A stretch of 33,938 nucleotides of DNA from a bacterium. Lineage in GTDB: Bacteria; Bacillota; Clostridia; Oscillospirales; Acutalibacteraceae. The notes beneath the pieces are model-generated. The model saw only the letters and a program-made list of their open reading frames with translations. It did no database searches and was not told where the DNA came from. Within the stretch, counting starts at the first letter, position 1. Each line of letters starts with the position of its first letter. The translations under genes were made by a program, and so were the position numbers. Positions 6,076 through 24,728 of this stretch are shown piece by piece. Where the stretch lies: assembly GCA_963625735.1 (NCBI GenBank), contig CAVFUV010000001.1:1-33938 (forward strand), in the 5' to 3' direction.

Positions 6076-6138
6076 GCGAAGCTTATAATCCAAGGCACTC
6101 CGTGCCTTCCGAAATTGTTAATTGTTAATTGTTAATTG
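6076..6138 (-). repeat. half element: AATTAAC heptads - stem-loop - GGATTATAAGCTTCGC
   Basis: Plus strand reads GCGAAGCTTATAATCC, then AAGGCAC-TCC-GTGCCTT, then CCGAAA, then (TTGTTAA)x3. Confidence 0.9.
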
Positions 6139-9646: not shown

Positions 9647-9755
9647 AAATTAACAATTAACAATTAATAATTTACAATTTCGGAAGACACTGCGTGTCTT
9701 GTATTGAAAAAGCTTCGCAAAACAACTCCACACTCCACTCTCCACACTCCACACT
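9647..9755 (+). repeat. half element followed by ACTCCAC heptads
   Basis: Modules in order are TTAACAA-type heptads, CGGAAGACAC-TGC-GTGTCTTG, TATTGAAAAAGCTTCGC and (ACTCCAC)x4. Confidence 0.9.
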
Positions 9756-11969: not shown

Positions 11970-12203
11970 ATGAAAGAATTACTTGAAGCACTTGCGAAAA
12001 GCCTTGTTGACAATCCCGAGGCAGTCGAGGTTACGGCAGATGAGAAAAACGAAAACGGTGTTACCGTTCTTCATCTCAAGGTCGCCGAGAACGACATCGG
12101 CAGAGTAATCGGCAAGCAGGGCAAAATAGCAAAGGCTATCAGAACTGTCATGCGCTCAGCGGCAAACAGACAGAACGAAAAGGTTCAGGTTGAAATCAAC
12201 TGA
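11970..12203 (+). CDS. KH-domain RNA-binding protein (YlqC/UPF0109)
   Basis: GRVIGKQGKIAKAIRTV is a KH GXXG motif. Its position after rpsP is conserved. Confidence 0.9.
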   Translation: MKELLEALAKSLVDNPEAVEVTADEKNENGVTVLHLKVAENDIGRVIGKQGKIAKAIRTVMRSAANRQNEKVQVEIN

Positions 12204-12221: not shown

Positions 12222-12252
12222 GGGCACTCCGCTTTATGCGGGGGCCTTTTTC
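12222..12252 (+). terminator. probable terminator after the KH-protein gene
   Basis: Imperfect GGGCACTCCGC/GCGGGGGCC hairpin followed by T5. Confidence 0.5.
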
Positions 12253-12430
12253 AATTAGCAATTAGCAGTTAGCAATTGGCAATGGAAGGGACCGGAGGTC
12301 AGGGACCGGAGGTCAGGGGCCGGGGGCCGGGGGCTTCGCAAGAGGTTAACTGAAAAAATTGTCTTGTCGGGTTCGAGACACTTTTTAAATTAACAATTGG
12401 CAATGAGAAAAAGTGACCGGTATCCGTTTG
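12252..12430 (+). repeat. element: AGCAATT heptads - (GGGACCGGAGGTCA)x2 - GGGGCCG heptads - GCTTCGCAAGAGG - hairpin - partial second unit
   Basis: Read directly from the sequence. It lies between the KH-protein terminator and the flippase 3' fragment. Confidence 0.85.
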
Positions 12431-12475
12431 CAGGGCTTTGCTGTGAGCGAAATGTACCGCTATTTGTGGTTTGAT

Positions 12476-12544
12476 GATATTTTAATGCTCCCGATGGGAA
12501 GAAAAATAGCAAAAGGTCTTGCAAAATTCGGGCTTATAGAGTAA
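12476..12544 (+). pseudogene. orphan 3'-terminal fragment (last 22 codons + stop) of the MurJ/SpoVB-like flippase gene
   Basis: It translates to DILMLPMGRKIAKGLAKFGLIE*. The 72 nt at 12476-12547 match the reverse complement of 20606-20677 at 70/72 positions. Similarity stops abruptly upstream. Confidence 0.8.
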
Positions 12545-12583
12545 AATGTTTTTTGTATCGCGTTAATGGGGAGGACAAAGATA

Positions 12584-13456
12584 ATGGTTGATAATTTTAC
12601 ATTCAAAGACAGCTATAATATGGATGACCTTGTTGAGATTATCGCAATCCTTCGTGCTCCCGGCGGTTGTCCGTGGGATGCCGAGCAGACGCATGAAAGC
12701 ATAAAGAAGAATTTTATCGAAGAGACATACGAAGTAATTGAGGCAATAAACAAAAAAAGTCCCGAAATGCTCCGTGAAGAGCTGGGTGATGTTCTTCTTC
12801 AGGTTGTTCTTCATACACAGATGGCGAGCGAAAACAACGCGTTTACATTTGACGATGTATGTGACGAGATATGCAAAAAGCTTATAATCCGTCATCCGCA
12901 TGTATTCGGTGATGTTACCGTCAGCGACACGGGCGAGGTGCTTAAAAACTGGGACGCGATAAAAATGCAGACCAAGAAGCAGAAAAGCGTGACGGAGAGC
13001 ATAGATTCCATTCCTCGTGAGCTGCCGTCACTTATGCGCGCACAGAAGGTTCAGCATAAGGCCGCAAAGGCGGGCTTTGACTGGGACAATATCGGCGGCG
13101 CACTCGACAAGGTGAGCGAGGAAGCAAGCGAAGTCAAAGAGGCTCTTGCCGAAAATGACAAGGAGCATGTGTCCGAAGAAATCGGCGATCTGCTTTTCGC
13201 CTGCGTGAATGTCTGCCGTTTTGCCGATACGGACGGTGAGGAAGCGCTTACAGCCGCAACGGATAAATTCGCCGCTCGCTTTGCGATAGTCGAACGCCTT
13301 GCAAAAGAACGTGGGATAGATATGAAGACAGCAACTATTGAGACGCTGGATGAGATGTGGGACGAAGCGAAGAAGCAATTGGCAATGGAAAAGGGGTCAG
13401 GTTCCGGGGGCCGGGGGTCGGGGAAGACACTGCGTGCCTTGGATTGTATGGCTTAG
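12584..13456 (+). CDS. mazG: nucleoside triphosphate pyrophosphohydrolase MazG, with repeat-derived C-terminal extension
   Basis: Two tandem MazG domains (EETYEVIEAI, ELGDVLLQV, EEASEVKEAL, EIGDLLFACV). The ATG at 12584 follows a GGGGAGG SD. The last 27 codons are read from the intergenic repeat element. Confidence 0.9.
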   Translation: MVDNFTFKDSYNMDDLVEIIAILRAPGGCPWDAEQTHESIKKNFIEETYEVIEAINKKSPEMLREELGDVLLQVVLHTQMASENNAFTFDDVCDEICKKLIIRHPHVFGDVTVSDTGEVLKNWDAIKMQTKKQKSVTESIDSIPRELPSLMRAQKVQHKAAKAGFDWDNIGGALDKVSEEASEVKEALAENDKEHVSEEIGDLLFACVNVCRFADTDGEEALTAATDKFAARFAIVERLAKERGIDMKTATIETLDEMWDEAKKQLAMEKGSGSGGRGSGKTLRALDCMA

Positions 13457-13501
13457 CTTTTTGCGAAGCCGACTCCACACTCCACACTCCACACTCCACA
13501 C
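13374..13501 (+). repeat. element copy 1 (AGCAATT/GGGGNCG heptads - stem-loop - box hairpin - ACTCCAC x4), overlapping the mazG 3' end
   Basis: Modules in order are AGCAATTGGCAATGG, GGGGTCAGGTTCCGGGGGCCGGGGGTCGGGG, AAGACAC-TGC-GTGCCTT, GGATTGTATGGCTTAGCTTTTTGCGAAGCC and ACTCCAC heptads. Confidence 0.9.
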
Positions 13502-13712
13502 TTTTAAACAGCTGACCGCTTAATTAAATTTGACAAAACGTCTTATGGTATTAGCAATCAGCAAATGGAAAAAGGGGTCGGGGTCGGGCCGGGAAAACAC
13601 TGCATACCTTGGATTATATGGCTTAGCTTTTTGCGAAGCCGACTCCACACTCCACACTCCACACTTTTAAACAGCTGACCGCTTAATTAAATTTGACAAA
13701 ACGCCTTATGGC
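13448..13712 (+). repeat. ~165-bp tandem duplication spanning element 3' half plus the hup upstream region
   Basis: The segment ATGGCTTAGCTTTTTGCGAAGCCG(ACTCCAC)nACTTTTAAACAGCTGACCGCTTAATTAAATTTGACAAAACGYCTTATGG occurs twice (13448-13548 and 13618-13711). The copies differ by one heptad and one SNP. Confidence 0.9.
13551..13665 (+). repeat. element copy 2 (decayed stem-loop, ACTCCAC x3)
   Basis: Same module order as copy 1. The stem-loop is degenerate (AAAACAC-TGC-ATACCTT). Confidence 0.85.
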
Positions 13713-13739
13713 TTTTGAAATATACAGGAGGAAACAAAA

Positions 13740-14012
13740 ATGAATAAGACAGAGCTTGTAGCTGCCGTTATGGAAAAATCGGGTCTCGATAAGAAGGCCG
13801 CAGATGCAGCGGTAAAGGCAACATTTGAAGCAATCACAGACGCTCTTGCAAAGGGCGATAAGGTTCAGCTCATCGGTTTCGGTACTTTTGATGTTCGTGA
13901 AAGAGCCGCAAGAGAAGCTATAAACCCCCAGACCAAAGAAAAGATTGCCGTTGAAGCCTGCAAGGTTCCCGGATTCAAGGCCGGCGCAGCACTTAAGAAC
14001 GCTGTAAAATAA
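13740..14012 (+). CDS. hup: DNA-binding protein HU
   Basis: MNKTELV...GFGTFDVRERAAREAINPQT is canonical HU. AGGAGG SD upstream and terminator downstream. Confidence 0.97.
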   Translation: MNKTELVAAVMEKSGLDKKAADAAVKATFEAITDALAKGDKVQLIGFGTFDVRERAAREAINPQTKEKIAVEACKVPGFKAGAALKNAVK

Positions 14013-14033
14013 TTTAATTCGTAAGAACAATTT

Positions 14034-14071
14034 CGCACCCTCGACGTAATGCCGGAGGTGCGGTTTTGTTT
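14034..14071 (+). terminator. intrinsic terminator of hup
   Basis: CGCACCCTC...GAGGTGCG hairpin followed by GTTTTGTTT. Confidence 0.8.
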
Positions 14072-14073
14072 AA

Positions 14074-14146
14074 TGCAGAATTAAGAATGCATAATGCATA
14101 ATGTCGGAAGTCCGCAAGACTTCCGAAATTGTTAATTGTTAATTAT
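14074..14146. repeat. minimal element: GCATAAT heptads - stem-loop GGAAGTC-CGCAA-GACTTCC - TTGTTAA heptads
   Basis: Read directly from the sequence, immediately after the hup terminator. Confidence 0.85.
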
Positions 14147-14168
14147 AAACAGCCGGGAGGAATTTATA

Positions 14169-14654
14169 GTGTCAATAGAAAAAGTTACGGCGTATTTTCG
14201 TTCGATGAACGCCGAGGATAAGATAAAGGTATTTGATGTATCGTCCGCAACAGTCGCTTTGGCGGCAAAGGCACTCGGCACAGAAGAGGCACGCATTGCC
14301 AAAACCATGTCATTTACAGTTAACGGCACACCAGTGCTTATAGTAACGGCAGGCGATACCAAAATCGCGAACTCAAAATTTAAGACATATTTTCACGTAA
14401 AGGCGAAAATGCTGACGGCCGAGGAGCTGACGGAATACGTCGGCCACGCTCCGGGCGGGGTCTGCCCGTTTGCCCTTAAAGACGGATGCAAGGTCTATCT
14501 TGATGAATCGCTTAAAAGATTTGATATTGTCTATCCCGCGGCGGGCAGCGCGAATTCCGCAGTTGAGCTGACACCCGACGAACTCGAAAAATATTCCAAC
14601 CCCGTCGGCTGGGTTGATGTTTGCAATATTGTTGAAAAAACTGCCGAATCGTAA
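14169..14654 (+). CDS. YbaK/EbsC-family aminoacyl-tRNA editing domain protein
   Basis: Motifs are AKTMSF and GGVCPF. I prefer the GTG at 14169 after a GGGAGGA SD. The ATG at 14136 lies inside a TTGTTAA heptad array. Confidence 0.75.
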   Translation: MSIEKVTAYFRSMNAEDKIKVFDVSSATVALAAKALGTEEARIAKTMSFTVNGTPVLIVTAGDTKIANSKFKTYFHVKAKMLTAEELTEYVGHAPGGVCPFALKDGCKVYLDESLKRFDIVYPAAGSANSAVELTPDELEKYSNPVGWVDVCNIVEKTAES

Positions 14655-14669
14655 TCTACCGAATCGTAC

Positions 14670-14698
14670 TTGACTAAATTTTTCTGTTGTCGTATACT
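14670..14698 (+). promoter_or_regulatory. candidate promoter of the DUF234 ATPase gene
   Basis: TTGACT-17 nt-TATACT. Confidence 0.5.
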
Positions 14699-14730
14699 GA
14701 ATACGGATAAATTTTTTCAGGGGTGATTTC

Positions 14731-16134
14731 ATGTTTATCGGTCGTGAAAAAGAGCTTAATATTCTGAACAGACTGTATGAGTCCGACAGATTTGAATTTG
14801 CCGTTATATACGGTCGCCGCCGTGTTGGCAAAACAGCACTTATAAATAAATTTCTTGACGGAAAAAAAGCCGTTTATTTTACCGGGGTTGAGAGCAACGC
14901 AAAACAAAATCTTGAAAACCTGAGCAAATGTATTGCCGAATATAACGGCGGAATTCCTGCTGATGCCGTGTTTTCATCTGTACAGTCGGCTGTTGAATTT
15001 TTATTTGAGCTTGCCGAAGACAGACGAATTGTTTTTGTAATTGACGAATATCCGTATTTCGCACGTGCGGAAAAAAGTCTCGCGTCCACCTTGCAGATGC
15101 TTATTGATAAGCATAAAGATTCGTCTAAGCTCATGCTCATTCTCTGCGGTTCGTCAATGTCTTATATGGAAGATAATGTTCTTGCGTATAAGTCTCCGCT
15201 GTACGGCAGACGGACGGCACAGCTTAAAATCGAGCCCTTTGATTTTGAAACTGCCTGCCGCTTTCTCGGCAACTTCTCCGCTGAGGACAAAGCTCTGCTT
15301 TACGGTGCTGTCGGCGGAACACCGCAGTATCTGGCACAGATAAACAACAAATTAAGTGTTGAAGATAACATAAAAAATACGTTTCTGAATGCATCGTCAT
15401 TTCTGTATGAAGAGCCTGTTAATCTCTTAAAACAGGAGGTTCGTGAACCGTCTCTTTACACGGCGATTATCGGTGCGGTTGCGTCCGGTGCGGTAAGAAT
15501 GAAGGAAATTTCAGTTAAAATCGGCGAGAATACAAGCAACAGTTCCTCTTACATAAAAAATCTTATATCGCTCGGAATACTTAAAAAGGAATCTCCATAC
15601 AACGAAAAAGAGTCAAAAAGAACGATTTATGCAATTGAAGACAATATGTTCCGCTTCTGGTATCGTTTTGTTTTGAATAACAGTTCGCTTATTTCACGAG
15701 GAGCGGCAGATCTTGTATACAATCGAATAAAGCCGTTTTTATCGGACTACATGGGAAAGGTATTTGAGGATATCTGCACCGAGTATCTGTGGAAGCTTCT
15801 TCTGACAGGAAAAAGTCCCGTAATGTTTGAATCTCTCGGACGTTGGTGGGGAAATGACCCGAAAGAAAAGTGTCAGACAGAGATTAATATAATGGGTGAG
15901 CAGGATAAAAACACCGCCGTTTTCGCAGAGTGCAAGTGGACAAACGAAAAGGTTGATGTCAAAGTCCTTGATACACTTATAAAGCGCAGTGAACTGTTCT
16001 CATATAAAAATACATTTCTGTTTCTTTTCGCAAAAACAGGTTTTACACAGAGCTGTATTGATAAGGCGGAGAGAATGGGAAATGTAAGACTTGTGAAATA
16101 TGAAGAGATGGCACAATTAGAAATTAGAAATTAG
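14731..16134 (+). CDS. AAA-type ATPase with DUF234 C-terminal domain (archaeal-ATPase family)
   Basis: N-terminus is FIGREKEL. Walker A is YGRRRVGKT and Walker B is VFVIDEYPY. The last six codons and the TAG lie inside the heptad array at 16114-16145. Confidence 0.85.
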   Translation: MFIGREKELNILNRLYESDRFEFAVIYGRRRVGKTALINKFLDGKKAVYFTGVESNAKQNLENLSKCIAEYNGGIPADAVFSSVQSAVEFLFELAEDRRIVFVIDEYPYFARAEKSLASTLQMLIDKHKDSSKLMLILCGSSMSYMEDNVLAYKSPLYGRRTAQLKIEPFDFETACRFLGNFSAEDKALLYGAVGGTPQYLAQINNKLSVEDNIKNTFLNASSFLYEEPVNLLKQEVREPSLYTAIIGAVASGAVRMKEISVKIGENTSNSSSYIKNLISLGILKKESPYNEKESKRTIYAIEDNMFRFWYRFVLNNSSLISRGAADLVYNRIKPFLSDYMGKVFEDICTEYLWKLLLTGKSPVMFESLGRWWGNDPKEKCQTEINIMGEQDKNTAVFAECKWTNEKVDVKVLDTLIKRSELFSYKNTFLFLFAKTGFTQSCIDKAERMGNVRLVKYEEMAQLEIRN

Positions 16135-16256
16135 CAATTAGCAATGAGTGGAAGTGACCGGTATCCGGTGGGCAGTATCCGGTGGCTGAGGAAGGCACAC
16201 AGTGCCTTGGATTTATAAAGCTTCGCAAAAGGTAAGCTAATGATGAGCTTCGCAAA
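16114..16256 (+). repeat. element: AATTAGN heptads - GACCGGTATCCGGTGG-type repeats - stem-loop - GGATTTATAAAGCTTCGC - second GCTTCGC
   Basis: Stem-loop is AAGGCAC-ACA-GTGCCTT at 16192-16208. The element overlaps the ATPase stop codon. Confidence 0.9.
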
Positions 16257-16314
16257 GTGTAGGCTTTTTGGGCGTTGCCGGCACTTCAGCCTTTCAAATC
16301 ACAATACAAAAAAG

Positions 16315-16360
16315 CATTAAAAAATTGCCGAATCGTAAACCGCCTGATTACGATTCGGCA
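16315..16360 (-). terminator. intrinsic terminator of the Cthe_2159-family gene
   Basis: 14-bp stem TTGCCGAATCGTAA/TTACGATTCGGCAA followed by a T-run on the minus strand. Confidence 0.85.
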
Positions 16361-16377
16361 AATTGTTTATATGGTTT

Positions 16378-18063
16378 TTATGTGTTCGAGGTGTTCTGCC
16401 CGCCGCTGTTCCCATTATCATCGGGCTTCTGCGGTCTGCCGCTCTCGTCCGTTTCGGGCTCCTGCCCGACCTGTCCGCCGGGGTTGCCGCCCTGACCGCC
16501 CGAGGGAATTTCGGGCTGACCGTTCTCGTTTGTCTCGGGTTCAAAGCTGCCGTCGGGCTTATTGCCACCCTGTCCGCCGCCCTGTCCGGGGTCGCCGCCC
16601 ATGTTGCCGCCCATACCGCTCTCGCCGTATATAAAGCCGCTGAGGGTAATTTCCGTACTGTTTGTGCCGTTTGATACCGTGAATGTTCCGTTCTCGGTCA
16701 TGCCGGCGCAGCTTATCACAACACAGTCAAAATTCTTTTTCGATGTCGCGGAACCGAGTGTCTCTCCGGCGTCGTTTTTGATTTCAACGGTATCGCCCGC
16801 CTTGCCGGAAATGTTGACAAGTGCCACGCCCTGATTTTCAGCCGCATTGAAGTTCTCCGCCATGCCGACAGAGCCGAACGCGAATATCGTGCCGCCCGTA
16901 ACCTTCGCAGTGGTGTTGCCGTCGCCGTAGTCAATCGCACCGTCACCGCCCGACACGGGGCCGTATACCGTAAGCGTACCGCCGCTGACATACAGGTCGC
17001 CGTTTGAGTCAACACCGTCGCCCGAAGCGTCAATTGTTATCTCGCCGCCGCTTATATTGATATAAGCCTCGCTGTCGCCCTGTCCGGGGTCGCTTCCCGT
17101 GTCGCCGCCTGCCGCGTTTATGCCGTCGTCGCTCGATATTATGTCTATCGTGCCGCCGGAAATATCAACCGTGTGACCCTCAATCCCTTCATAGGACTGC
17201 TCTATATTTATTGTGCCGCCTAAAATCTTAAGCGAAGCCGATGAGTGCATACCGTCGTCTCCGGCGTTTATCGTGTAGGTGCCGTCCTCAATATAGACAA
17301 AGCCCAGGTCGTCATCCTCGTCATTGTCGCCGTGGATACCGTCCTTGCCCGAAGTGAGATTGAATGTGCCGTTCATTATGCGGACGTCGTCCTTGCCTGC
17401 CAGACAGTGTTTTTCGGCGTTGACGGTATATGTGCCGCCTGTTACACACAAAGTGTCCTTCGATACAATACCGTGACCTGTCTCACTTGAAATTGTAATA
17501 CTGCCCGAGCCGTTGAATGTAAGGTCATCCTTCGAGAATACGCACGCATCTATATTGTTGTCGTCAATTGCGACAAAGTCCCCGGTGTTTGTCAGAGTGT
17601 TCTCGGTGTTCGGAGCGAGTGTTATGACAACCTTGTCGGCACTCTTGACATATACCGCCGCCGTGGTGCTTTTTGAGATATTCACACCGGCGAAAATAAT
17701 ATGAACCTTGTCGGAATCGTCTGCGTCAACAACGATACTGCCGTCCGAGAGTGTGCCCTTGAAGATATATGTGCCCTCGTCGCTTATCGTAATGTTATTG
17801 CCGTCAATTGTTACCGTGCCGTTTTTGCATTTTGTGCCGTTGTCGGCAAGAGTTATCACGGTGTCGTTGTTCTCGTCGTAGCCGACATTTACGTCAAAGC
17901 TTGTGAACATATCTGAAATACCTGTGTTTTCGTCGTATGCGGCGGCATCCGTCGCAATTGCCGATGAAGTCGTGTCGGTCGAGTTGCCGACTGAACAGCC
18001 GGCGAATGACAGAACGGAAATTACCGCCGTTATTATGCATACCGTTTTCTTAAAGTTCATCAT
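16378..18063 (-). CDS. Cthe_2159-family (DUF4353) beta-helix carbohydrate-binding lipoprotein with G/P/Q-rich tail
   Basis: Lipobox is FAGC. Repeated motifs of the type GTYxIxG...DGI... are present. I prefer the ATG at 18063 (GGGAG SD). It overlaps the upstream gene by 14 nt. Confidence 0.8.
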   Translation of the reverse strand: MMNFKKTVCIITAVISVLSFAGCSVGNSTDTTSSAIATDAAAYDENTGISDMFTSFDVNVGYDENNDTVITLADNGTKCKNGTVTIDGNNITISDEGTYIFKGTLSDGSIVVDADDSDKVHIIFAGVNISKSTTAAVYVKSADKVVITLAPNTENTLTNTGDFVAIDDNNIDACVFSKDDLTFNGSGSITISSETGHGIVSKDTLCVTGGTYTVNAEKHCLAGKDDVRIMNGTFNLTSGKDGIHGDNDEDDDLGFVYIEDGTYTINAGDDGMHSSASLKILGGTINIEQSYEGIEGHTVDISGGTIDIISSDDGINAAGGDTGSDPGQGDSEAYINISGGEITIDASGDGVDSNGDLYVSGGTLTVYGPVSGGDGAIDYGDGNTTAKVTGGTIFAFGSVGMAENFNAAENQGVALVNISGKAGDTVEIKNDAGETLGSATSKKNFDCVVISCAGMTENGTFTVSNGTNSTEITLSGFIYGESGMGGNMGGDPGQGGGQGGNKPDGSFEPETNENGQPEIPSGGQGGNPGGQVGQEPETDESGRPQKPDDNGNSGGQNTSNT

Positions 18064-18745
18064 TTTCACCGCTCCCTTCAATATTGTGCATGATAATTTC
18101 AAGATTGCCGTTTAAGCATCTGAGTTCATCTATAAAAGCCTTTTCCTGCGAGGCGTTCTTAAGCTTAAGACGATAGGTCAGTCTGAACAGACTTCCGAGT
18201 CCTGCCGTTTTTGAGCCGAGGCGTATGCAGGAGGTTGTGTATTTTTTGAATACGTCATTAAAGGCGACTGTATAATCAACATCCTCGGGTACGGTCATTT
18301 TCATGACACGCTCAAGACTGTCGCCACGCTCGCCGAAGGGCGTGAGATTGAGCAAAGCGAACACCAGACAAACGATAGCCGTGAACAGAACCGCAAACGC
18401 GATATAGCCCATTCCGCACAGGAGTCCCGTGCCCATTGCCATAAACAGAACCGCTATTTCTCTTGCCGTGCCGGGAGCGGAACGAAAGCGAACCAGACCG
18501 AACGCGCCCGCGACTGCGACACCCGCGCCGACATTGCCGTTGACAGCCATTATCACAACGCATACAATCGCCGGCAGAATAGCTGCCGTGACCGTAAAGC
18601 TTTTTGATGAATATGTTTTTCTTGTGCACAGAACCGCAATCGCCGCACCGAGTATAAGAGCCGCGACAAGTGCGATTAAAAAGCTCTGTACCGACACCGT
18701 TGTCGTAGTCGAAGTGTCGAAAATTCCGTTAAAAATTGATGACAT
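18050..18745 (-). CDS. DUF4956 membrane protein
   Basis: Multi-TM protein with a GLVRFRSA motif. The ATG at 18745 follows an AAGGAG SD. It overlaps the VTC gene by 17 nt. Confidence 0.8.
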   Translation of the reverse strand: MSSIFNGIFDTSTTTTVSVQSFLIALVAALILGAAIAVLCTRKTYSSKSFTVTAAILPAIVCVVIMAVNGNVGAGVAVAGAFGLVRFRSAPGTAREIAVLFMAMGTGLLCGMGYIAFAVLFTAIVCLVFALLNLTPFGERGDSLERVMKMTVPEDVDYTVAFNDVFKKYTTSCIRLGSKTAGLGSLFRLTYRLKLKNASQEKAFIDELRCLNGNLEIIMHNIEGSGENDEL

Positions 18746-19445
18746 TGTTAAAATCTCCTTCCGTATTTCCGCCTGTTTTAATATAGAGTGCACCGTATTT
18801 TGAAAAGCTCGATTTGTATATCTTGAGGTCCGACAGCTTTTTCGCAATTTCAAGCGGAATTACCGTCGGCGTTTTTATCTCGAGAATGACTTTTCCGGGG
18901 CAAAGCTCAATACCGTACGGCGGTGACTCAAGCGACAAATCGTAATTTCTGCCCCGCACATTCATGTCAAACGTTATGCGGACAAGGTTGTCAAGAGTGA
19001 CATATGACCGTCTGTCGCATGAAATGTACGCTGTCGGAATAAGCGTGCCGTAGTGAGTTAAAAAGCTGTCTATCTCTTTTTCAATCTGCGTATCCTTGCG
19101 TGGACACGTGCCGTCAAGCCACTGCTCGGCCTGCTTTTCGGTCGCCGTAACACGCCGTTTATAGACAACGGAATTGTACTTTTTCTTAAGCTCCACAAAA
19201 ACCGTCGAGTTGTCGTCAACCGTTTTGTATGCCCTGACACGCAGCTTTTCTTTGTATGCGGGCCCTTCAAGGGAGCGTGTTATCAGCCGTCTGTCGGGAG
19301 TGTCATAATAGAGACTCCGCACCGTGCCTTCCGGGAAAACGTCGGGCTTTATCATCTCTTTAAGGCCTGACAGAAGCTCAAGATATTGACTTTCGGTTAT
19401 CAGAAACTTTATCTCGTTTCTTTCAAATCTGTCGGTGATGTTCAT
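18729..19445 (-). CDS. VTC-domain (polyphosphate polymerase domain) protein
   Basis: The pattern ERNEIKFLI...SLYYDTPD...KLRVRAY...VFVELKKK is typical of the VTC/CYTH-like domain. Confidence 0.8.
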   Translation of the reverse strand: MNITDRFERNEIKFLITESQYLELLSGLKEMIKPDVFPEGTVRSLYYDTPDRRLITRSLEGPAYKEKLRVRAYKTVDDNSTVFVELKKKYNSVVYKRRVTATEKQAEQWLDGTCPRKDTQIEKEIDSFLTHYGTLIPTAYISCDRRSYVTLDNLVRITFDMNVRGRNYDLSLESPPYGIELCPGKVILEIKTPTVIPLEIAKKLSDLKIYKSSFSKYGALYIKTGGNTEGDFNNVINF

Positions 19446-19550
19446 TGGTTTTACACCGCTTTCTCTGTTTGATGAGATAATACGATGAGGACTTTAATCG
19501 GAATTTAAAAAGATTACAGAGTTGTAATATTTTTAAGGTTTGTGAAAAAA

Positions 19551-20070
19551 GGGCGAGCGAAGCGAGCCTGAAGCCCGAGCCGACAGGCGAGGGCATGTCG
19601 CGAGGAGCGACAGCGACGAGCGAAGCCGAGCGAAGCGAGGCAAAGCCCGAGGAGGCGGCGTAAGCCGACGACGAGGGCACGGGCGGCGAGGAGAGCGACA
19701 GCGTCGACGAGCCGCAGGACGCGACGACGAACACCTGCCAACGGCAGGCGTAAGGAGGAGTGTCTCCCCGAGCGAAGCAGATTTGTGAGGGGCTGCCCGT
19801 GGCTGCCCTCATAAATCTGCTGAGCGGAGGGTGCCGTCCGGAATGTGGCTTCCGGCAGTACGCCATACGAAAGGCATGTCATTTTACTTGAAAGGAATGT
19901 CACTCCCGGGCGGCAAAGCGACCCGGATTTCGCAGCAAGCTTGCAATCAAGCAAAAAGCTTGCCTCTTGCGTTAGCTTACAATCCAAGTCCGCAGGACTT
20001 CCTTGTTTTCCCGGCCCCCGACCCCCGGTCCCCGGCCCCTGTCCAATTGCTAACTGCTAATTGCTGATTA
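19551..20070 (-). repeat. largest element copy: AGCAATT + GGGGNCG heptads - stem-loop - box - structured module - T-depleted GCGAAGC-rich tract
   Basis: On the plus strand, heptads lie at 20010-20068, stem-loop AAGTCC-GCA-GGACTT at 19986-20000, hairpins at 19777-19820 and 19935-19963, and the GCGARGC-rich tract at 19551-19740. Confidence 0.8.
19777..19820. other. 15-bp-stem hairpin (GCAGATTTGTGAGGG ... CCCTCATAAATCTGC) in the 716-bp spacer
   Basis: Direct complementarity with one G-T pair. The 14-nt loop contains the GGCTGCC direct repeat. Confidence 0.7.
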
Positions 20071-20099
20071 TTCTCCCGCTTTGCCGCAACCTGCAGCAC

Positions 20100-20129
20100 G
20101 AAAAAAAGCACCGACAAAAGTCGATGCTT
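20100..20129 (-). terminator. intrinsic terminator of rpmB
   Basis: Minus strand reads AGCATCGAC-TTTT-GTCGGTGCT followed by T7. Confidence 0.85.
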
Positions 20130-20161
20130 AAAATCGCAGCTTAAAATTTCGATTAACCGGA

Positions 20162-20350
20162 TCAGACGGCTCTCGTAACCTTGCCCGAACGGATGCAGCG
20201 AGTGCATGCATACACTCTGCAGGGGGAACCGTTAACAACAGCCTTAACCTTCTTAATGTTGGGCTTCCAAGTTCTGTTGGATCTTCTGTGGGAGTGGGAT
20301 ACCTTGATGCCGAATTTTACGTCTTTGCCGCAAAAGTCACACTTTGCCAT
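20162..20350 (-). CDS. rpmB: 50S ribosomal protein L28
   Basis: MAKCDFCGK...SHSHRRSNRTWKPNI matches L28. AGGAGG SD upstream and terminator downstream. Confidence 0.95.
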   Translation of the reverse strand: MAKCDFCGKDVKFGIKVSHSHRRSNRTWKPNIKKVKAVVNGSPCRVYACTRCIRSGKVTRAV

Positions 20351-20605
20351 TGAGAGCACACCTCCTTTGAAATATGGGTAAAATTACCCCTCGTAAATCG
20401 CAAGAAATATATTAACAGATATGCACCGGAATTGCAAGTGTTTTTTTAAACTTTTTTATTGAACCTCAAAAGCAAAAACATTCCCAAACATAATATTCGC
20501 AAAGTTTAACAACAAGTACATATCGTTACGAAACATAAAACGGCCGCAACACCCGAATTTACGGGGATTGCGATTGTTTTTTCCGCTCAGGCTGTCAAAA
20601 ACGGG

Positions 20606-20677
20606 ATTTTACTCTATAAGCCCGAATTTTGCAAGACATTTTGCTATTTTTCTTCCCATCGGAAGCATTAAAATATC
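20606..20677 (-). repeat. right copy of the 72-bp inverted repeat (native flippase 3' end); partner at 12476-12547
   Basis: 70/72 identity in inverted orientation. Confidence 0.9.
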
Positions 20678-22381
20678 TTCCTTGGGGATAGAATGAGTCG
20701 CAAGCAGTGCAAGAACATATGTAACAATCGCCGCGAACACACCGGCAATCACGCCTAAATTGGCGGCGTTCAGCAGTCCGCCCAGCCCCTCTTCGGGCAA
20801 GAATCTGTTGTATGCGGCATCCACACCCCATGCGGCAATACCCGACAGTACAGCACAGAACAGCGGTTTTAAGAATGTGCCCATTATATCGTATTTCAGT
20901 CCCGTTTCTTTTTTCAGCACAACAAGACCGTATGCGACCATTATAATGTTGCACAGAATCGAGCCCAGAACCGCCCCCTGAATATTGATTGACGGAACGC
21001 TTACGATAAGAAAATTCGCGACAATTTTTACAATGGCGCCAATAGCCATTGCCTTTATCGGAACATCCGCACGGTTGACAGCCTGAAGCATGTTCGTTAT
21101 AGGCTGAGTAAGCGCAAGAAAAACAACCGACACGCCGTAAAGCATCAATATTGGTGCGATATACGGAATAGCCGGTGAAATAGTCTCGCTTGAGCCGTAT
21201 ATAAGCTCCAGAATATCATCGGCAAGGGCAACCATTCCGCACCCCGCCGGATACGCAATAAGCAATGTAAGACGAATGACGGAATCAACCGCCTTGTTTA
21301 CTTCTTCCCATTTTCTCTTTGTCCACGCGGCGGACAGAACCGGAATGGCACTGAGTCCCAGGGTTATCGTAAAAGTGGGAACAATATTTTTAATTTCTAT
21401 TACCGTATCATACGCGCCGTAAAGGTAATCCTTAAACGCCACGGCATCGGCGGCGGTGTAGCCCTGTGATGATACAATACCGGGATACATGGCGGCGACG
21501 GTGTCAAAATGCTCGCTTAATACCGCCATAAGACGGTTCGGTATTACCCAGTTGTCAATAAGCGTTGTAACGTTGAATATAAGAGAGCTTACGGCAATCG
21601 GTATCGCTATTTTCATAAGCTCCTTTGAAAGAGCGCCGAATGACAGTGCGTCGGGCGAAGCGTCAAGCTCCCCTTGCGTGATAAGATTTTTTTCAAAGCG
21701 GTGACGGAGCATCAGATACAAAAGCCCCATCAAAGAACCTATCGTCACTCCGGCAATTGCCGCCGCCGCGGACCACGCCTGAACCTTTTCGGTTACTATC
21801 GTATTGAGATACGGAATTTTATCGGCAAATGTCGCACCCGTTCCGACGACGACGTTTATTAAGAGCCAGCCGAAAATAAGCTTGCCGCCGGCTTCAAACA
21901 CCTGCGATATGGCGGATGGGGTCATATTTCCGAGTCCCTGATAATAGCCGCGGTAGCCGCTCATCACACAGCAGAAAAACAGTGACGGAGCAATCGCGAG
22001 AATTGCCGGCACGGCGTTTAACACACCGTCTGACTGCGACGACGCAAACGGCACGGCAAGCACCGCTATAAGCACCATGCCCACAACGCCGAAGAGCGAG
22101 AAAAGCAGGACGGAAACGTTAAACAGCTTCTTGACATCCTTATATCTGCCCTCAGCCGCACGGGACGCCACCATTTTTGAAACTGCAGTCGGCAGCCCCG
22201 CCAGGGCTATTGTGTAAATGGGCGTATAGATATTGTATGCAGTGGCATAATAGCTCTTGCCCTCAAGCCCTATCTGATACGTAACATAGACCTTAAAGAA
22301 AATGCCTATTATTTTAACGGCCAATATCGCGAGCGACAGAATTAAAGCGCCGTTTAATACCGATTGTGATTTTTTTGCCAT
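20609..22381 (-). CDS. MOP-superfamily flippase (MurJ/SpoVB-like polysaccharide biosynthesis protein)
   Basis: 590-aa protein with about 14 TM segments and an N-terminus typical of SpoVB/MurJ-like proteins. GGAGG SD upstream. Confidence 0.85.
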   Translation of the reverse strand: MAKKSQSVLNGALILSLAILAVKIIGIFFKVYVTYQIGLEGKSYYATAYNIYTPIYTIALAGLPTAVSKMVASRAAEGRYKDVKKLFNVSVLLFSLFGVVGMVLIAVLAVPFASSQSDGVLNAVPAILAIAPSLFFCCVMSGYRGYYQGLGNMTPSAISQVFEAGGKLIFGWLLINVVVGTGATFADKIPYLNTIVTEKVQAWSAAAAIAGVTIGSLMGLLYLMLRHRFEKNLITQGELDASPDALSFGALSKELMKIAIPIAVSSLIFNVTTLIDNWVIPNRLMAVLSEHFDTVAAMYPGIVSSQGYTAADAVAFKDYLYGAYDTVIEIKNIVPTFTITLGLSAIPVLSAAWTKRKWEEVNKAVDSVIRLTLLIAYPAGCGMVALADDILELIYGSSETISPAIPYIAPILMLYGVSVVFLALTQPITNMLQAVNRADVPIKAMAIGAIVKIVANFLIVSVPSINIQGAVLGSILCNIIMVAYGLVVLKKETGLKYDIMGTFLKPLFCAVLSGIAAWGVDAAYNRFLPEEGLGGLLNAANLGVIAGVFAAIVTYVLALLATHSIPKEDILMLPMGRKIAKCLAKFGLIE

Positions 22382-22414
22382 GAGGACCTCCGAGGTATTA
22401 CTTTGGTTAAGAAT

Positions 22415-22443
22415 ATAATACAGCTTGCTTTAGAATATATCAA
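22415..22443 (-). promoter_or_regulatory. candidate promoter of the flippase gene
   Basis: TTGATA-17 nt-TATTAT on the minus strand, abutting the phased array. Confidence 0.5.
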
Positions 22444-22622
22444 AGAACTTTCAAAACTTTTAAAATGATTTTAAAAGTTTCAAAGAGATTTTCAAAGTTT
22501 CAAAGAGATTTTCAAAGTTTCAAACAAATTTTCAAAAGTTTCAAAGAGATTTTAAGAGTTTCAAACACTTTTTCAAAACTTTCAAACGATTTTCAGAAGT
22601 TTTCAAATCATTTCAAAACTTA
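22441..22622. repeat. ~17 tandem ~10-bp units (TTTCAAAGNN / TTTTCAAAG), helically phased T/A-tract array
   Basis: TTCAAA cores recur every 9-11 bp from 22450 to 22610. The array lies directly upstream of the flippase -35 and begins at the helicase stop codon. Confidence 0.9.
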
Positions 22623-24728
22623 TTCATCCGAAATGAGATTTGCCTTTACAAGATGCGACACGCTCAGTTTCCGTGTTTTGCCATCCTCAAACTCGGCGAC
22701 TATCGTGTCCCCGGTGCGTGCGGTCACGGTGAAACTGCCGAGCTTGCGGTGGTTGAATTTTCCGCCGACAGTTACGCTGTCATTCGAGAAAAATCCGCTC
22801 TCTCCGCCTGCGTCCCATACGGAAAATGTCGCAAGCTTCAGCGGTGTGCCGATATCGTATTTTTTCGCCGCGTTCAGAGCCGCTTCGTGCCGCTTTTCTA
22901 TCTTGCGGCGAAGCGTCTTGCCGAAAACCTCATCCGAAAAGCTCGTTTCATAGCTTTTTGACGTATATGTAAAAATATTAAGATTGTTTTTCGCGCGTGT
23001 CATGGCGACATAGAAAAGCCGCCGCTCCTCCTCCGCCTGCGTTTCGGACTGCTCGCCCGTCATATTCTCTCGATTATCAGCGGGAAGAGTACCGTCAAAG
23101 GCGTTTATAATATATACGGTGTCGTATTCCGTGCCCTTTGCACCGTGAATTGTGGACAGCACAGCGCCTTTTTCTTTTCTGCCGTCACCGACCGCCGTTT
23201 TAAGTGTCCCGAGATGCTCAAGAAAATCCGGTACCGTCTTGTCATCCTTTGCGAGAATACTCAGAATTTCCGTTTTGTTGATATCCGTCCCCTGAGTATA
23301 CCCGGCGTACCCCGGCAGAAATGCCGCAAGAAAAACCCCGGTGGAAACATTCGATTTTTTTATTCTGTCAAGCGTCTGCTCGATTTTTCCGCATTTTTCA
23401 AGTGCGGGCTGAGACAGAACCCTGTTTCGCTTAAGACAGTCAAACACGCTCTTTTTCTTTTTCACAGCTTCATTCACGGCGACAACCGCGTCGTTTTTTG
23501 AGATGTACAGCCCCAATTTATAATAAAGCATCATAAAAGCGTCGCTGTCATATCTGTTATACGCGAGCTTCAGAATATTGCCGATATCCGTGACCGTTTT
23601 GGACGTAAAAAACGTACAGTCGTTTTCACGGCTCATAAACGGTATACCGCGTTTTATAAGCATATCGATAAGCGGCAAAGCGCACTCGTTGTTTCTGTAA
23701 AGCACAGCCGTATCGGAGTCGGCGTCTTTCAGAATACCGCACAGTGCCGTATACTGGTCTTCAAGCGTCGCAACGGAAATTTCCTTTACCTGCCCGTGGG
23801 CGGTTCTTGAAGCGAACATATTCTTCTGTATTCTCTGCGTGTTTTTGGAGATAAATCCGTCCGCAGCCTTTACTATTTCGGGAACGCTTCTGAAATTTTC
23901 TTCGCTTTTGAGAATTACGGCATTCTTGTATTTTTCGTTGAATGTCAGCAGAAATTCGGGGTATGCCCCTCTGAAGCCGTAAATACTCTGGTCTTCATCA
24001 CCGACCATGAAAATATTGCCGCTCCCCGCCAGAAGCCTTATTATGCAGTGTTGGATTTTGGATGTATCCTGCGCTTCATCCACGCATATATACTTAAATC
24101 TGTCGTGATATTTTTTTCTGAGTGACGGATAGTTTTTAAGCATCGACAAAGCGTAAACAAGCTGATCGTCATAATCCATCAGCCGCTGCTCACGCATATA
24201 GTCCGTATACGCCTTATATATTTTTGAAATTGCCGCTCCCCCGCCGTCAAGTTTTTTTATTTCTTCATCGGTCAGCATGCTGTTTTTTATACAGGTGATA
24301 CTGCGGCGTATTTCGGAAATTGTCGTCTCCGACGGATATTCGTCGTTAAGCTTTAGATAAATTGCGCCGATTGCGGAAACGGTCTTGCGCTCGTCCGTCT
24401 GAAGTGAAAAGGGAATACGCCCGGTCATATTCGAAAAATCGTTGATTATTTTCTGGGCTATGCCGTTAATCGTGCGAAACTCGGGCGGTTCAAGCTCCGG
24501 GAACATTGCGTGAAAGCGATGTCTCATCTCGTTTGCCGCCGCCACCGTATAGGTAAGCACCAACACACTGTCGGACGGTATCCCCCGGTTTTCTATCATC
24601 TCGCCAAGGCGTGCGATAAGCACCGTTGTCTTGCCGCTCCCCGGCACCGCAAGCAGCAAAACAGCGCCGTCGATATTTTCGACAGCGGCAGACTGCTGAG
24701 GGTTCAGTTGACGACTTACATTATACAT
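22620..24728 (-). CDS. UvrD/Rep/PcrA-family ATP-dependent DNA helicase with extra C-terminal domain
   Basis: Motifs are LNPQQSAAV, Walker A AVPGSGKTT, DEAQD and TIHGAKGTEYD. Confidence 0.88.
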   Translation of the reverse strand: MYNVSRQLNPQQSAAVENIDGAVLLLAVPGSGKTTVLIARLGEMIENRGIPSDSVLVLTYTVAAANEMRHRFHAMFPELEPPEFRTINGIAQKIINDFSNMTGRIPFSLQTDERKTVSAIGAIYLKLNDEYPSETTISEIRRSITCIKNSMLTDEEIKKLDGGGAAISKIYKAYTDYMREQRLMDYDDQLVYALSMLKNYPSLRKKYHDRFKYICVDEAQDTSKIQHCIIRLLAGSGNIFMVGDEDQSIYGFRGAYPEFLLTFNEKYKNAVILKSEENFRSVPEIVKAADGFISKNTQRIQKNMFASRTAHGQVKEISVATLEDQYTALCGILKDADSDTAVLYRNNECALPLIDMLIKRGIPFMSRENDCTFFTSKTVTDIGNILKLAYNRYDSDAFMMLYYKLGLYISKNDAVVAVNEAVKKKKSVFDCLKRNRVLSQPALEKCGKIEQTLDRIKKSNVSTGVFLAAFLPGYAGYTQGTDINKTEILSILAKDDKTVPDFLEHLGTLKTAVGDGRKEKGAVLSTIHGAKGTEYDTVYIINAFDGTLPADNRENMTGEQSETQAEEERRLFYVAMTRAKNNLNIFTYTSKSYETSFSDEVFGKTLRRKIEKRHEAALNAAKKYDIGTPLKLATFSVWDAGGESGFFSNDSVTVGGKFNHRKLGSFTVTARTGDTIVAEFEDGKTRKLSVSHLVKANLISDE

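What the first reader, a model, noticed from the sequence alone, without database searches (positions are those of the whole stretch)
12476..20677. 72-bp inverted duplication of the flippase 3' end brackets an 8-kb segment: invertible region or recent inversion scar
Positions 12476-12547 encode DILMLPMGRKIAKGLAKFGLIE* plus 3 nt after the stop. They match the reverse complement of 20606-20677, the real 3' end of the 590-aa flippase gene on the minus strand, at 70/72 positions. Homology ends sharply on both sides.
The orphan copy sits directly upstream of mazG. In many Firmicutes a SpoVB/MurJ-like gene, mazG and hup are adjacent and co-oriented, as I recall from Clostridium and Bacillus gene orders. 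Flipping 12548-20605 by recombination between the two copies would restore flippase-mazG-hup colinearity and leave the flippase intact in both orientations.
The left breakpoint also coincides with truncation of the ffh operon and with a repeat element at 12252-12430. An orphan non-coding stub at 97% identity suggests either a very recent event or ongoing gene conversion or inversion.
Basis: partly seen in the sequence, partly recalled or inferred. Interest (0 to 1): 0.62.

Follow-up and report, generated by a model that had tools for sequence, protein, structure and literature searches.

The report
Inversion scar that keeps mazG's promoter
The 75-base orphan copy of the flippase gene's end is a real leftover of an old chromosomal inversion, kept because it probably carries the promoter of the next gene, and nothing shows it acting as a flip-flop switch.

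Summary
Arms 12473-12547 and 20606-20680 are 72/75 complementary, and homology ends sharply on both sides.

In more than 100 related species the order is flippase, mazG, hup, co-oriented. In the window the mazG-to-VTC block is inverted relative to the flippase. About 20 independent contigs share the same two junction sequences, so the inversion arose once and is not a misassembly.

The stub's high identity does not need recency or gene conversion to explain it. Its last 29 bases read TTGCAA-17-TAAAAT, a promoter-like site whose -10 hexamer contains the flippase stop codon. The exact motif stands at 78 of 104 distinct flippase-mazG junctions in other species. Among inverted strains this part changes far less than neutral sites. 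The upstream third of the stub has decayed in one lineage, where the arms are only about 86% alike.

Uninverted genomes persist, including two contigs identical over kilobases to inverted strains. So this is a structural polymorphism in a recombining population. Those genomes do not have the layout that arm-by-arm flipping predicts. No recombinase gene lies nearby.

The ancestral left junction was not recovered, and more than one rearrangement is likely. No read-level test was possible.

The parts
11970..12203 (+). KH-domain (KhpA-like) gene, last gene of the ylxM-ffh-rpsP-KH operon. It is the left flank of the rearranged block.
   Evidence: Translation. Called with PF13083 in related contigs. 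A terminator-like hairpin lies at 12227-12243.
12252..12430 (.). Intergenic repeat-element array (7-nt unit arrays plus a hairpin core). It is hypervariable between strains.
   Evidence: The array at this site differs completely between inverted strains.
12425..12472 (+). Truncated 5' part (about 50 nt) of a second repeat family ('E'). The left breakpoint cuts this element.
   Evidence: Alignments, against full copies in L301, L289, L285, L292 and L291.
12473..12547 (+). Orphan copy ('stub') of the last 22 codons plus stop plus 3 nt of the flippase gene. It is the left arm of the inverted repeat.
12519..12547 (+). Promoter-like site TTGCAA-17 nt-TAAAAT, the proposed mazG promoter. Its -10 hexamer holds the former flippase stop codon.
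   Evidence: The exact motif is at 78 of 104 distinct flippase-mazG junctions in other species, and in 77 of these the TAA closes the flippase ORF. Among inverted strains 12506-12547 shows 0-1 differences in 42 nt, against about 13% at neutral sites.
12548..12583 (+). mazG 5' leader with a GGAGG ribosome-binding site.
   Evidence: It shows 1-2 differences in 36 nt among inverted strains.
12584..13456 (+). mazG (nucleoside triphosphate pyrophosphohydrolase). In this window the ORF tail runs into a repeat element.
   Evidence: PF03819. Homology to other mazG genes ends near 13380.
13740..14012 (+). hup (HU DNA-binding protein).
   Evidence: PF00216.
14136..14654 (+). YbaK/aminoacyl-tRNA editing domain gene.
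   Evidence: PF04073.
14731..16134 (+). ATPase_2/DUF234 gene, an accessory gene present in some strains and absent in others.
   Evidence: It is absent in L284-L287, L290 and L301.
16378..19445 (-). Operon of three genes: VTC-domain, DUF4956 and Cthe_2159.
   Evidence: PF09359, PF16316 and PF14262.
19978..20069 (.). Repeat element at the far end of the inverted block. Homology with the uninverted contig L301 stops inside it, at 19995.
20162..20350 (-). rpmB (ribosomal protein L28). It has its own promoter-like site, TTGCAA-17-TAATAT (read by eye), and a terminator. It is absent from this position in the uninverted genomes.
   Evidence: PF00830. Terminator at 20129-20106. L301 has no rpmB upstream of VTC.
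20351..20605 (-). rpmB upstream region, including a terminator-like hairpin (20515-20571). This is the sequence now joined to the flippase stop.
   Evidence: Positions 20467-20605 were found only in inverted genomes and are 85-89% alike between sequence groups.
20606..20680 (-). True 3' end of the flippase gene, the right arm of the inverted repeat. It carries the same promoter-like site at 20634-20606.
20609..22381 (-). MurJ/SpoVB-like flippase gene (MOP superfamily), 590 aa and intact.
   Evidence: PF03023, PF01554 and PF01943. It is 57-99% identical to orthologues in 26 genomes.

Best explanation
The 75-bp copy is the old flippase/mazG junction. It travelled with mazG when the block mazG-hup-ybaK-(ATPase)-Cthe_2159-DUF4956-VTC was turned around relative to the flippase gene.

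The last ~35 bp of the flippase gene double as the mazG promoter: -35 TTGCAA, a 17-bp spacer, and -10 TAAAAT whose TAA is the flippase stop codon. A breakpoint at this junction therefore has to keep this stretch on both sides to leave both genes working. The rearrangement that survived duplicated it in inverted orientation. This fits a staggered break filled in on both ends, or a replication template switch.

Since then the stub's promoter-proximal two thirds have been held by purifying selection. Its upstream third is free to decay.

The inversion arose once. It is now a stable structural variant carried by many strains of an uncultured Acutalibacteraceae species, labelled 'Ruminococcus sp.' in the MAG records. 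The uninverted form persists in the same recombining population. The two arms are not an active switch.

Shown:
- the inverted order
- the single origin
- the conservation pattern
- the family-wide motif
- coexistence of both forms

Inferred:
- promoter activity
- selection as the reason the duplication was retained
- the break mechanism
- the number of steps
For: Ancestral order:
- Flippase, mazG and hup are adjacent and co-oriented in 24 of 26 loci and 77 of 80 loci.
- The nearest species (L005, L296, L299, L300; about 88% nt) has uvrD-flippase-mazG-hup-ybaK-ATPase then Cthe_2159-DUF4956-VTC on the other strand. This is the window's block in the opposite orientation.

Single event:
- All inverted contigs share the same two joints...GTGGTTT|GATGATATT... 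and ...TAAAAT|CCCGTTTTTGACAG....
- These contigs fall into four sequence groups that differ by about 13% at third codon positions.

No homogenisation of the arms:
- The window's gene end has its own CTC>CTT and GGT>TGT changes.
- Other groups have ATA>ATT or GTT.
- None of these changes is in the stubs.
- In L286/L290 the arms are about 86% alike.

Promoter:
- TTGCAA-17-TAAAAT lies at 12519-12547 and ends exactly at the repeat boundary.
- The exact motif TTG[A/C]AA-17-TAAAAT is at 78 of 104 distinct junctions. In 77 of these its TAA closes the flippase ORF.
- There are only 99 hits in 3.6 Mb of the fetched loci, nearly all of them at these junctions.
- The stub's 3' 42 nt plus the 36-nt leader show 1-3 differences in 78 nt where about 10 are expected (binomial P 0.0003-0.007 per group).
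- The stub's 5' 33 nt show 0, 1 and 6 differences.

Coexistence of both forms:
- L301/L302 are uninverted and 94-97% identical to the window.
- They have 0 differences from inverted L290 over about 3.5 kb and 0-1 per 500 nt from inverted L286/L279 over several kb.

Mechanism precedent:
- Inversions flanked by inverted duplications of unique sequence, sometimes at only one breakpoint and as short as 46 bp, are explained by staggered breaks in Drosophila (PMC1885836).
Against: - No transcript data. The promoter rests on sequence and conservation only, and the RNA attempt in R. bromii gave only undirected contigs.
- The conserved hexamers also lie partly in coding sequence in the ancestral arrangement. 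The AAT after the stop and the fixed 17-nt spacer do not.
- The upstream third of the stub is also less changed than neutral in three of four groups (0, 0 and 1 differences in 33 nt). So some further constraint, or a younger shared origin of the junction allele, is possible.
- The population recombines heavily, which weakens any dating from divergence.
- The ancestral left junction was never recovered.
- The uninverted L301 has an OYE-type reductase gene, not rpmB or KH, next to VTC. An outgroup contig (L282) has rpmB beside rplU-prp-rpmA. The left breakpoint lies inside a repeat element. So a single two-break inversion does not account for everything.
Confidence: 0.68

Rival explanations
1. 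The 8-kb segment is an invertible region. The two 75-bp arms recombine, through RecA or a dedicated invertase, so cells switch between orientations and change the transcriptional context of mazG-hup and rpmB.
For: - The geometry fits: inverted arms bracket the segment and the flippase stays intact either way.
- In the window's own group the arms share perfect blocks of 14, 24 and 32 nt. That is near the lower limit for homologous recombination (own knowledge).
- Both orientations relative to the flippase exist among near-identical strains.
- One 664-nt Logan contig in run X3 joins the flippase directly to mazG.
Against: - Every one of about 20 inverted assemblies shows one orientation. None shows the predicted alternative KH-stub-rpmB joint.
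- The uninverted L301/L302 have no stub, rpmB or KH to the left of VTC. They have a single arm whose markers are not a one-crossover chimera of the arms of their nearest inverted relatives.
- Arms about 86% alike in L286/L290 keep the same orientation.
- No integrase, resolvase or DDE transposase domain was found in any window ORF tested.
- Arm-specific substitutions are not shared.
- The X3 contig has 3x depth and comes from a k=31 graph, so it could be chimeric.
Confidence: 0.06
2. The inversion is very recent. The stub is a neutral scar that has simply not had time to diverge.
For: - The arms are 72/75 identical in the window.
- The stub is identical in the window, L028, L287 and L288.
- Heavy recombination could have spread a young junction allele into diverged backgrounds.
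Against: - The sequences immediately flanking the joints exist only in inverted genomes and differ by 10-18% between groups: 12405-12472, and 20467-20605 with 16-20 differences in 139 nt. The adjacent stub barely changes.
- The differences between the arms are changes in the real gene, not in the stub.
- The conserved stretch coincides with a motif conserved across more than 100 species.
Confidence: 0.12
3. The arrangement arose through several rearrangements driven by the abundant intergenic repeat elements and an IS256-family element. It was not a single two-break inversion, and the 75-bp duplication is a by-product of one of those steps, for example a tandem-inversion-duplication intermediate later trimmed by deletions.
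For: - The left breakpoint lies inside an 'E' repeat copy.
- Homology between the inverted and uninverted forms ends inside a repeat element at 19995.
- The neighbour of VTC differs in three lineages: rpmB, the OYE gene, and an unknown sequence.
- rpmB sits beside rplU-prp-rpmA in L282.
- IS256-family copies lie after KH (L291), after Cthe_2159 (L278) and at the left end of L301.
- The site after KH is a recurrent synteny break.
Against: - Neither joint of the 75-bp arms carries an IS or a repeat-element copy in inverted orientation.
- No inverted copy of the left-flank sequence is present at the right joint (read).
- The intermediate states are unobserved.
- This rival concerns the path, not the nature of the stub, and is compatible with the promoter-retention explanation.
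Confidence: 0.4
4. The stub is an assembly artefact, or a collapsed repeat wrongly placed upstream of mazG.
For: The only contig holding the exact flippase protein in Logan ends at the repeat, as expected when a short-k graph breaks at a repeat.
Against: - Independent assemblies made with k of 119-141 or SPAdes, from different samples and pipelines, cross both joints with unique sequence on each side.
- The uninverted genomes have only one copy.
Confidence: 0.01

Closest known systems
Inversions flanked by inverted duplications of unique sequence (staggered-break model, Drosophila melanogaster group; Ranz et al. 2007, PMC1885836)
   Same: - A derived inversion relative to outgroups.
- A sequence that is single-copy in the ancestral arrangement is present in inverted orientation at the two ends of the inverted block.
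- One copy is a non-coding gene fragment.
[quoted passage not shown]
- The size is within their range (46 bp to 1.9 kb).
   Different: - This is a bacterial chromosome with no meiosis. The repair pathway is unknown.
- The left breakpoint lies in a repeat element.
- The duplicate appears to be kept by selection because it holds a promoter.
- More than one rearrangement may be involved.
Site-specific invertible DNA switches ('invertons': Hin/Gin-type, Fim-type, Bacteroides promoter inversions, shufflons)
   Same: Inverted repeats bracket a DNA segment, and a promoter-like site lies in a repeat arm.
   Different: - No invertase gene was found nearby.
- The arms are 75 bp of ordinary coding sequence, not short recombinase sites.
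- The segment is 8 kb with nine housekeeping or accessory genes.
- One orientation per assembly.
- The arms diverge freely in one lineage.
IS- or repeat-mediated chromosomal inversions in bacteria (homologous recombination between inverted IS, rrn or REP copies)
   Same: Repeat elements and an IS256-family element cluster around the block's borders in this population, and borders coincide with repeat elements.
   Different: The two joints defined by the 75-bp arms do not carry matching mobile-element copies. The repeated sequence is a piece of a resident gene that was single-copy before the event.
Tandem inversion duplications remodelled by deletion (Salmonella lac system, Roth laboratory; own knowledge, not checked in a paper here)
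   Same: Template switching can create inverted copies of a region. Later deletions can leave an inverted segment with short inverted leftovers at a border.
   Different: No intermediate, quasi-palindromic junction or remaining extra copy was seen. This is purely a candidate path.

Membership tests
Site-specific invertible element (inverton) | Inverted repeats flanking the segment | tested here: met
   Arms of 75 nt, 96% complementary.
Site-specific invertible element (inverton) | A serine or tyrosine recombinase (invertase) encoded in or beside the element | tested here: not met
   Pfam scans of all large ORFs of the window found no Resolvase, Recombinase, Phage_integrase or DDE domain. Four ORFs have no Pfam hit (228-1121, 4155-4667, 19423-19866, 32404-33531).
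Site-specific invertible element (inverton) | Both orientations present within one clonal population or sample | not testable with these tools
The raw runs offered do not hold the organism. Logan contigs cannot phase a 75-nt repeat. Across samples, each assembly shows one orientation.
Site-specific invertible element (inverton) | The alternative orientation is the exact product of exchange between the two arms | tested here: not met
   The uninverted L301/L302 lack the stub, rpmB and KH to the left of VTC, and carry one arm only.
Inversion with breakpoint duplication (staggered-break type) | The arrangement is derived relative to outgroups | tested here: met
   More than 100 species plus the sister species keep flippase-mazG-hup.
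Inversion with breakpoint duplication (staggered-break type) | The duplicated stretch is single-copy in the uninverted arrangement | tested here: met
   One copy in L005 and one in L301.
Inversion with breakpoint duplication (staggered-break type) | Copies lie in inverted orientation at the two ends of the inverted block, with identical joints in all carriers | tested here: met
Inversion with breakpoint duplication (staggered-break type) | Both ancestral junctions can be reconstructed as a simple two-break exchange | tested here: inconclusive
   The right junction is reconstructed (flippase|mazG in L005 and L301). The left junction was not recovered, and the neighbours found (OYE gene in L301, rplU operon in L282) do not fit a single exchange.
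IS-mediated inversion | Inverted copies of one IS at both breakpoints | tested here: not met
   There is no transposase in the window. An IS256-family gene occurs only in relatives, and at other positions.
Sigma-70/SigA-type promoter | -35 and -10 hexamers close to consensus with a 16-18 nt spacer | tested here: met
   TTGCAA-17-TAAAAT, 9 of 12 matches. A single such hit is at chance level for 500 nt, so this alone proves nothing.
Sigma-70/SigA-type promoter | Conservation of hexamers and spacing beyond coding needs | tested here: met
   The exact motif is at 78 of 104 junctions, including the non-coding AAT after the stop. It is nearly absent elsewhere in 3.6 Mb. It also changes little in the non-coding stub.
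Sigma-70/SigA-type promoter | A mapped transcription start downstream of the -10 | not testable with these tools
   Only undirected Logan contigs were available for R. bromii RNA runs.
MurJ/SpoVB-like flippase (MOP superfamily) | MurJ / MatE / Polysacc_synt domain architecture over the full length | tested here: met
   PF03023, PF01554 and PF01943 on the 590-aa product.

The most novel reading that the evidence does not exclude
The block containing hup (HU) and mazG may be a cassette that this population rearranges repeatedly. The drivers could be rare exchange between the 75-bp arms, or the unusual hypervariable intergenic repeat elements and IS256 copies at its borders. Strains with virtually identical sequence would then differ in which promoters drive mazG-hup and rpmB, a heritable and possibly reversible expression polymorphism of a nucleoid protein. 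The coexistence of both orientations in backgrounds with 0 differences over kilobases is compatible with this.
Probability: 0.07. Interest if true: 0.7.

Novelty: new member of a known kind. Interest (0 to 1): 0.36.

Why it matters
- It is a clean bacterial example of an inversion that duplicated a breakpoint sequence. The example comes with a concrete reason for the duplicate's survival: a promoter that overlaps the upstream gene's last codons and stop codon.
- It shows that high identity between an orphan fragment and its parent gene need not mean recency or gene conversion.
- The family-wide 'stop codon inside the -10' arrangement at the flippase-mazG junction is a testable regulatory feature in cultured relatives such as Ruminococcus bromii and Clostridium leptum.
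- For scans of this kind, it warns that inverted repeats around housekeeping genes are more likely scars than switches.
- It points to the repeat elements of this genome as the more unusual feature.

Tried and rejected
- Rfam scan of the window: no family. tRNA scan: none.
The sister genome's KH contig (L188) ends 190 nt after KH, inside a repeat array, so the ancestral left junction was not seen.
- The metagenome-contig scan found nothing closer than 73%.
- The exact hup look-up gave only near-identical inverted contigs.
- Contigs of the sister species all start 136-610 nt upstream of VTC in repeat arrays.
- I tried to find the reciprocal junction through the OYE gene. Its 90% cluster is dominated by another organism with unrelated neighbours, so I abandoned this route.
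Runs X1-X4 and X25 are Logan contigs of related strains. The raw metagenome runs X9-X11 hold only a handful of reads. No run was listed for the sister species.
- RNA evidence for the promoter in R. bromii: contigs only, uninformative.
- Rejected: the stub as the remnant of a second, paralogous flippase. Uninverted genomes have a single copy, and the stub equals the ancestral allele.
- Rejected: a duplication of left-flank sequence at the right joint. None is present.
- Rejected: the sequence at 20605 being the missing rest of the E element. The alignment is not convincing.
- The literature search for yabM/yabN/mazG promoter work found nothing relevant.

Full report
**Observation**

The inverted repeat is real. 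The repeat finder lists arms 12473-12547 and 20606-20680, 75 nt and 96% complementary, with 8058 nt between them. The differences are at 12490 and 12515, with a third at the left edge (12475). The right arm is the true 3' end of a 590-aa MurJ/SpoVB-like flippase gene at 20609-22381, minus strand. The left arm is an orphan that ends 36 nt before the likely mazG start (ATG 12584 after GGAGG).

**Gene map**

- Plus strand: ylxM, ffh, rpsP and KH.
- A repeat array at 12252-12430, then a truncated 'E' repeat at 12425-12472.
- The stub.
- Plus strand: mazG, hup, a YbaK-like gene and an ATPase_2/DUF234 gene.
- Minus strand: Cthe_2159, DUF4956 and VTC.
- A GC-rich non-coding stretch and a repeat element at 19978-20069.
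- rpmB (20350-20162, minus), with a promoter-like site read by eye and a terminator.
- Minus strand: flippase, uvrD, GH2 and SBP5.
- No Rfam family and no tRNA gene.

**Is the segment inverted?**

Yes. With the flippase as query, 24 of 26 related genomes show flippase, mazG and hup adjacent and co-oriented. With mazG as query, 77 of 80 species do. The nearest other species is represented by L005, L296, L299 and L300, at about 88% nt identity and 24-30% difference at third codon positions. It has SBP5-GH2-uvrD-flippase-mazG-hup-ybaK-ATPase followed by Cthe_2159-DUF4956-VTC on the other strand. That is the window's block 12548 to about 19995 in the opposite orientation relative to the flippase.

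**Is it an assembly error or a one-off?**

No. The MAG 'Ruminococcus sp. binchicken_co354_49' is about 94% identical at the nucleotide level. It has the left joint on one contig (L028) and the right joint on another (L002). Exact-protein look-ups with L28 and the KH protein returned many more contigs:

- L284-L288 and L290 span the whole arrangement in single contigs of 29-225 kb.
- L274-L281 and L283 span the right joint.
- L295 spans the left joint.
- Logan contigs of runs X1, X4 and X25 add further support.

All carry the same two joints...GTGGTTT|GATGATATT... and ...TAAAAT|CCCGTTTTTGACAG.... This points to one origin.

**Why is the stub so well preserved?**

The inverted genomes fall into four sequence groups. 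These differ by about 13% at third codon positions and in the non-coding 139 nt next to the right joint. The stub is nevertheless identical in the window, L028, L287 and L288, and has one change in each of L284 and L285.

The three arm differences in the window are changes in the real gene. Two are the window's own (CTC>CTT, GGT>TGT). At those two sites the stub keeps the state seen in the sister species. At the left edge (12475) all three sequences differ. Other groups have their own changes in the real arm (ATA>ATT or GTT) that are likewise absent from their stubs. So the arms are not being homogenised.

In L286/L290 the stub has seven changes, six of them clustered in its first third, and the arms are only about 86% alike. 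The orientation is the same.

The conserved part coincides with a promoter-like site, TTGCAA-17-TAAAAT at 12519-12547. This site ends exactly at the repeat boundary, and its -10 hexamer contains the flippase stop codon. The same site stands at 20634-20606 on the minus strand.

A single such match is at chance level, but its conservation is not:

- At 78 of 104 distinct flippase-mazG junctions from other species, the exact motif TTG[A/C]AA-17-TAAAAT is present.
- In 77 of these its TAA closes the flippase ORF.
- The motif is almost absent elsewhere in 3.6 Mb of fetched loci.
- The conserved positions include the three non-coding bases after the stop and an invariant 17-nt spacer.
- Within the inverted strains, the stub's 3' 42 nt plus the 36-nt leader show 1-3 differences in 78 nt where about 10 are expected (binomial P 0.0003-0.007).
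- The stub's 5' 33 nt show 0, 1 and 6 differences.

I therefore read the stub as the mazG promoter cassette. Promoter activity itself is inferred, not shown.

**Switch or scar?**

No recombinase domain was found in any window ORF tested. No assembly shows the joint predicted by arm-by-arm exchange, which would be KH-stub-rpmB.

A search through the Cthe_2159 protein cluster found two uninverted contigs at in-group identity: L301 (ENA, 43 kb) and L302 (JGI, 38 kb). Their order is orf160-PnuC-AP_endonuclease-OYE reductase, then repeats, then VTC-DUF4956-Cthe_2159, then ybaK-hup-mazG-flippase-uvrD-GH2-SBP5 on the other strand.

These contigs are strikingly close to inverted genomes. L301 has 0 differences from inverted L290 over about 3.5 kb (window coordinates 12548-17548). 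It has 0-1 differences per 500 nt from inverted L286/L279 over 17548-19048 and 21048-24500. So both orientations coexist in one recombining population. This also makes the flippase-mazG Logan contig of run X3 credible.

L301 is not, however, the flip-back product:

- It has one arm only.
- It has no rpmB, stub or KH to the left of VTC. Homology to the window ends at 19995, inside a repeat element.
- Its arm markers are not a single-crossover chimera of the arms of L286/L290.

The simplest reading is a stable structural polymorphism, with allele exchange by homologous recombination inside the block. It is not programmed inversion. A read-level test in one sample was not possible.

**How it arose**

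The right-hand ancestral junction is clear: the flippase end is continuous with the mazG leader. The duplicate is single-copy in the uninverted genomes. This pattern matches inversions with inverted duplication of unique sequence at a breakpoint, explained by staggered breaks and fill-in in Drosophila. Cases with duplication at only one breakpoint, and sizes down to 46 bp, are reported there (PMC1885836). A replication template switch is an alternative.

Flippase coding sequence and the mazG promoter overlap. Only events that duplicate the overlap keep both genes working. That may explain why this particular outcome survived. This is an inference.

The left side is unresolved:

- The break lies inside an 'E' repeat copy.
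- The sister species' KH contig stops in a repeat array.
- L291 and L293 have other sequence after KH, and L291 also carries an IS256-family transposase gene there.
- L301 starts inside the same IS.
- An outgroup contig (L282) has rpmB beside rplU-prp-rpmA.
- rpmB is not next to VTC in L301.

More than one rearrangement is therefore likely. I put this at about 0.4.

**The ffh operon claim**

rimM-trmD follow KH in L118, L122 and L135. In the closest other species, KH is followed by unrelated genes that differ from species to species: a dockerin protein, mraZ-mraW, RbsD or phosphoglucomutase. The truncation is therefore older than this inversion and independent of it. The site after KH is, however, a recurrent break.

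**Verdict**

- The 'inversion scar' reading is right.
- The 'invertible region', 'very recent' and 'gene conversion' readings are not supported.
- The feature is an ordinary kind of event: a chromosomal inversion with a breakpoint duplication.
- It has one instructive twist, retention of an overlapping promoter, and it sits in a genome whose intergenic repeat elements look more unusual than the finding itself.

Noticed in passing
window 6087-6110(-), 8315-8338, 9682-9705, 12252-12430, 13422-13445, 16190-16213, 19978-20069, 24806-24829, 30375-30398(-), and flanks: Nearly every intergenic gap holds a repeat element. The core is a hairpin, GGAAG-palindrome-CTTG.ATT.TA..GCTTCGC, whose stem varies by compensatory changes. 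It is flanked by arrays of 7-nt units that differ from copy to copy (AATTAGC, TGCATAA, AGTGTGG, GGGGCCG, CTCCTTG). Arrays at the same site differ completely between strains. There is no Rfam match.
   Followed up: partly
window 12425-12472 and 19446-19977; L301:165-470, L289:3690-4020, L282:1235-1500: A second repeat family ('E') of about 300 nt with a GC-rich GCTCGCTTCGCTCG tail. The window's left breakpoint cuts one copy. The 147-aa 'ORF' at 19423-19866 is probably non-coding, low-complexity, GC-rich sequence, though gene callers annotate it.
   Followed up: partly
window 22429-22631: About ten tandem copies of a 20-21-nt unit (TTTCAAAGTTTCAAAGAGAT) between the uvrD stop and the flippase start. 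This is helically phased A/T-rich sequence in the flippase upstream region.
   Followed up: no
window 13380-13456: The mazG ORF of this strain runs about 70 nt into a repeat element, giving a 290/296-aa product. Other strains' genes are called at 270-272 aa.
   Followed up: no
window 14731-16134: The ATPase_2/DUF234 gene (with a weak Mrr_cat hit) is present or absent among otherwise collinear strains. It is absent in L284-L287, L290 and L301.
   Followed up: partly
window 28622-30073; L002:8578-9550, L276:639-2075, L296:8504-9940: A Schlafen/AlbA_2-HATPase_c_4-Fic_C gene is inserted between the flippase and uvrD in many relatives but not in the window. The window has a paralogue, 68% identical at the nucleotide level, further right.
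   Followed up: no
L291:10550-11803, L278:4731-4841, L301:1-125: An IS256-family element (PF00872 transposase) sits at three different places around this locus in related strains.
   Followed up: partly
window 20515-20571: A 57-nt terminator-like hairpin just downstream of the flippase stop also occurs in unrelated contexts in Logan contigs of runs X1 and X3. In the inverted form it could stop transcripts from the promoter copy left at the flippase end.
   Followed up: no
L282:1-2107: In an outgroup contig, rpmB (identical protein; 10 mismatches and 2 gaps in 369 nt) lies divergently beside rplU-prp-rpmA. So the position of rpmB also differs between lineages.
   Followed up: partly
window 1638-2630 and 2942-3988: Two tandem paralogous alpha/beta-hydrolase (Peptidase_S9-like) genes share stretches that are 74-87% identical.
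   Followed up: no
L286, L290 and L301 across window coordinates 12548-24500: There are sharp mosaic blocks, 0 differences for kilobases and then 3-6%, between strains of one study. This indicates frequent homologous recombination in this species.
   Followed up: partly
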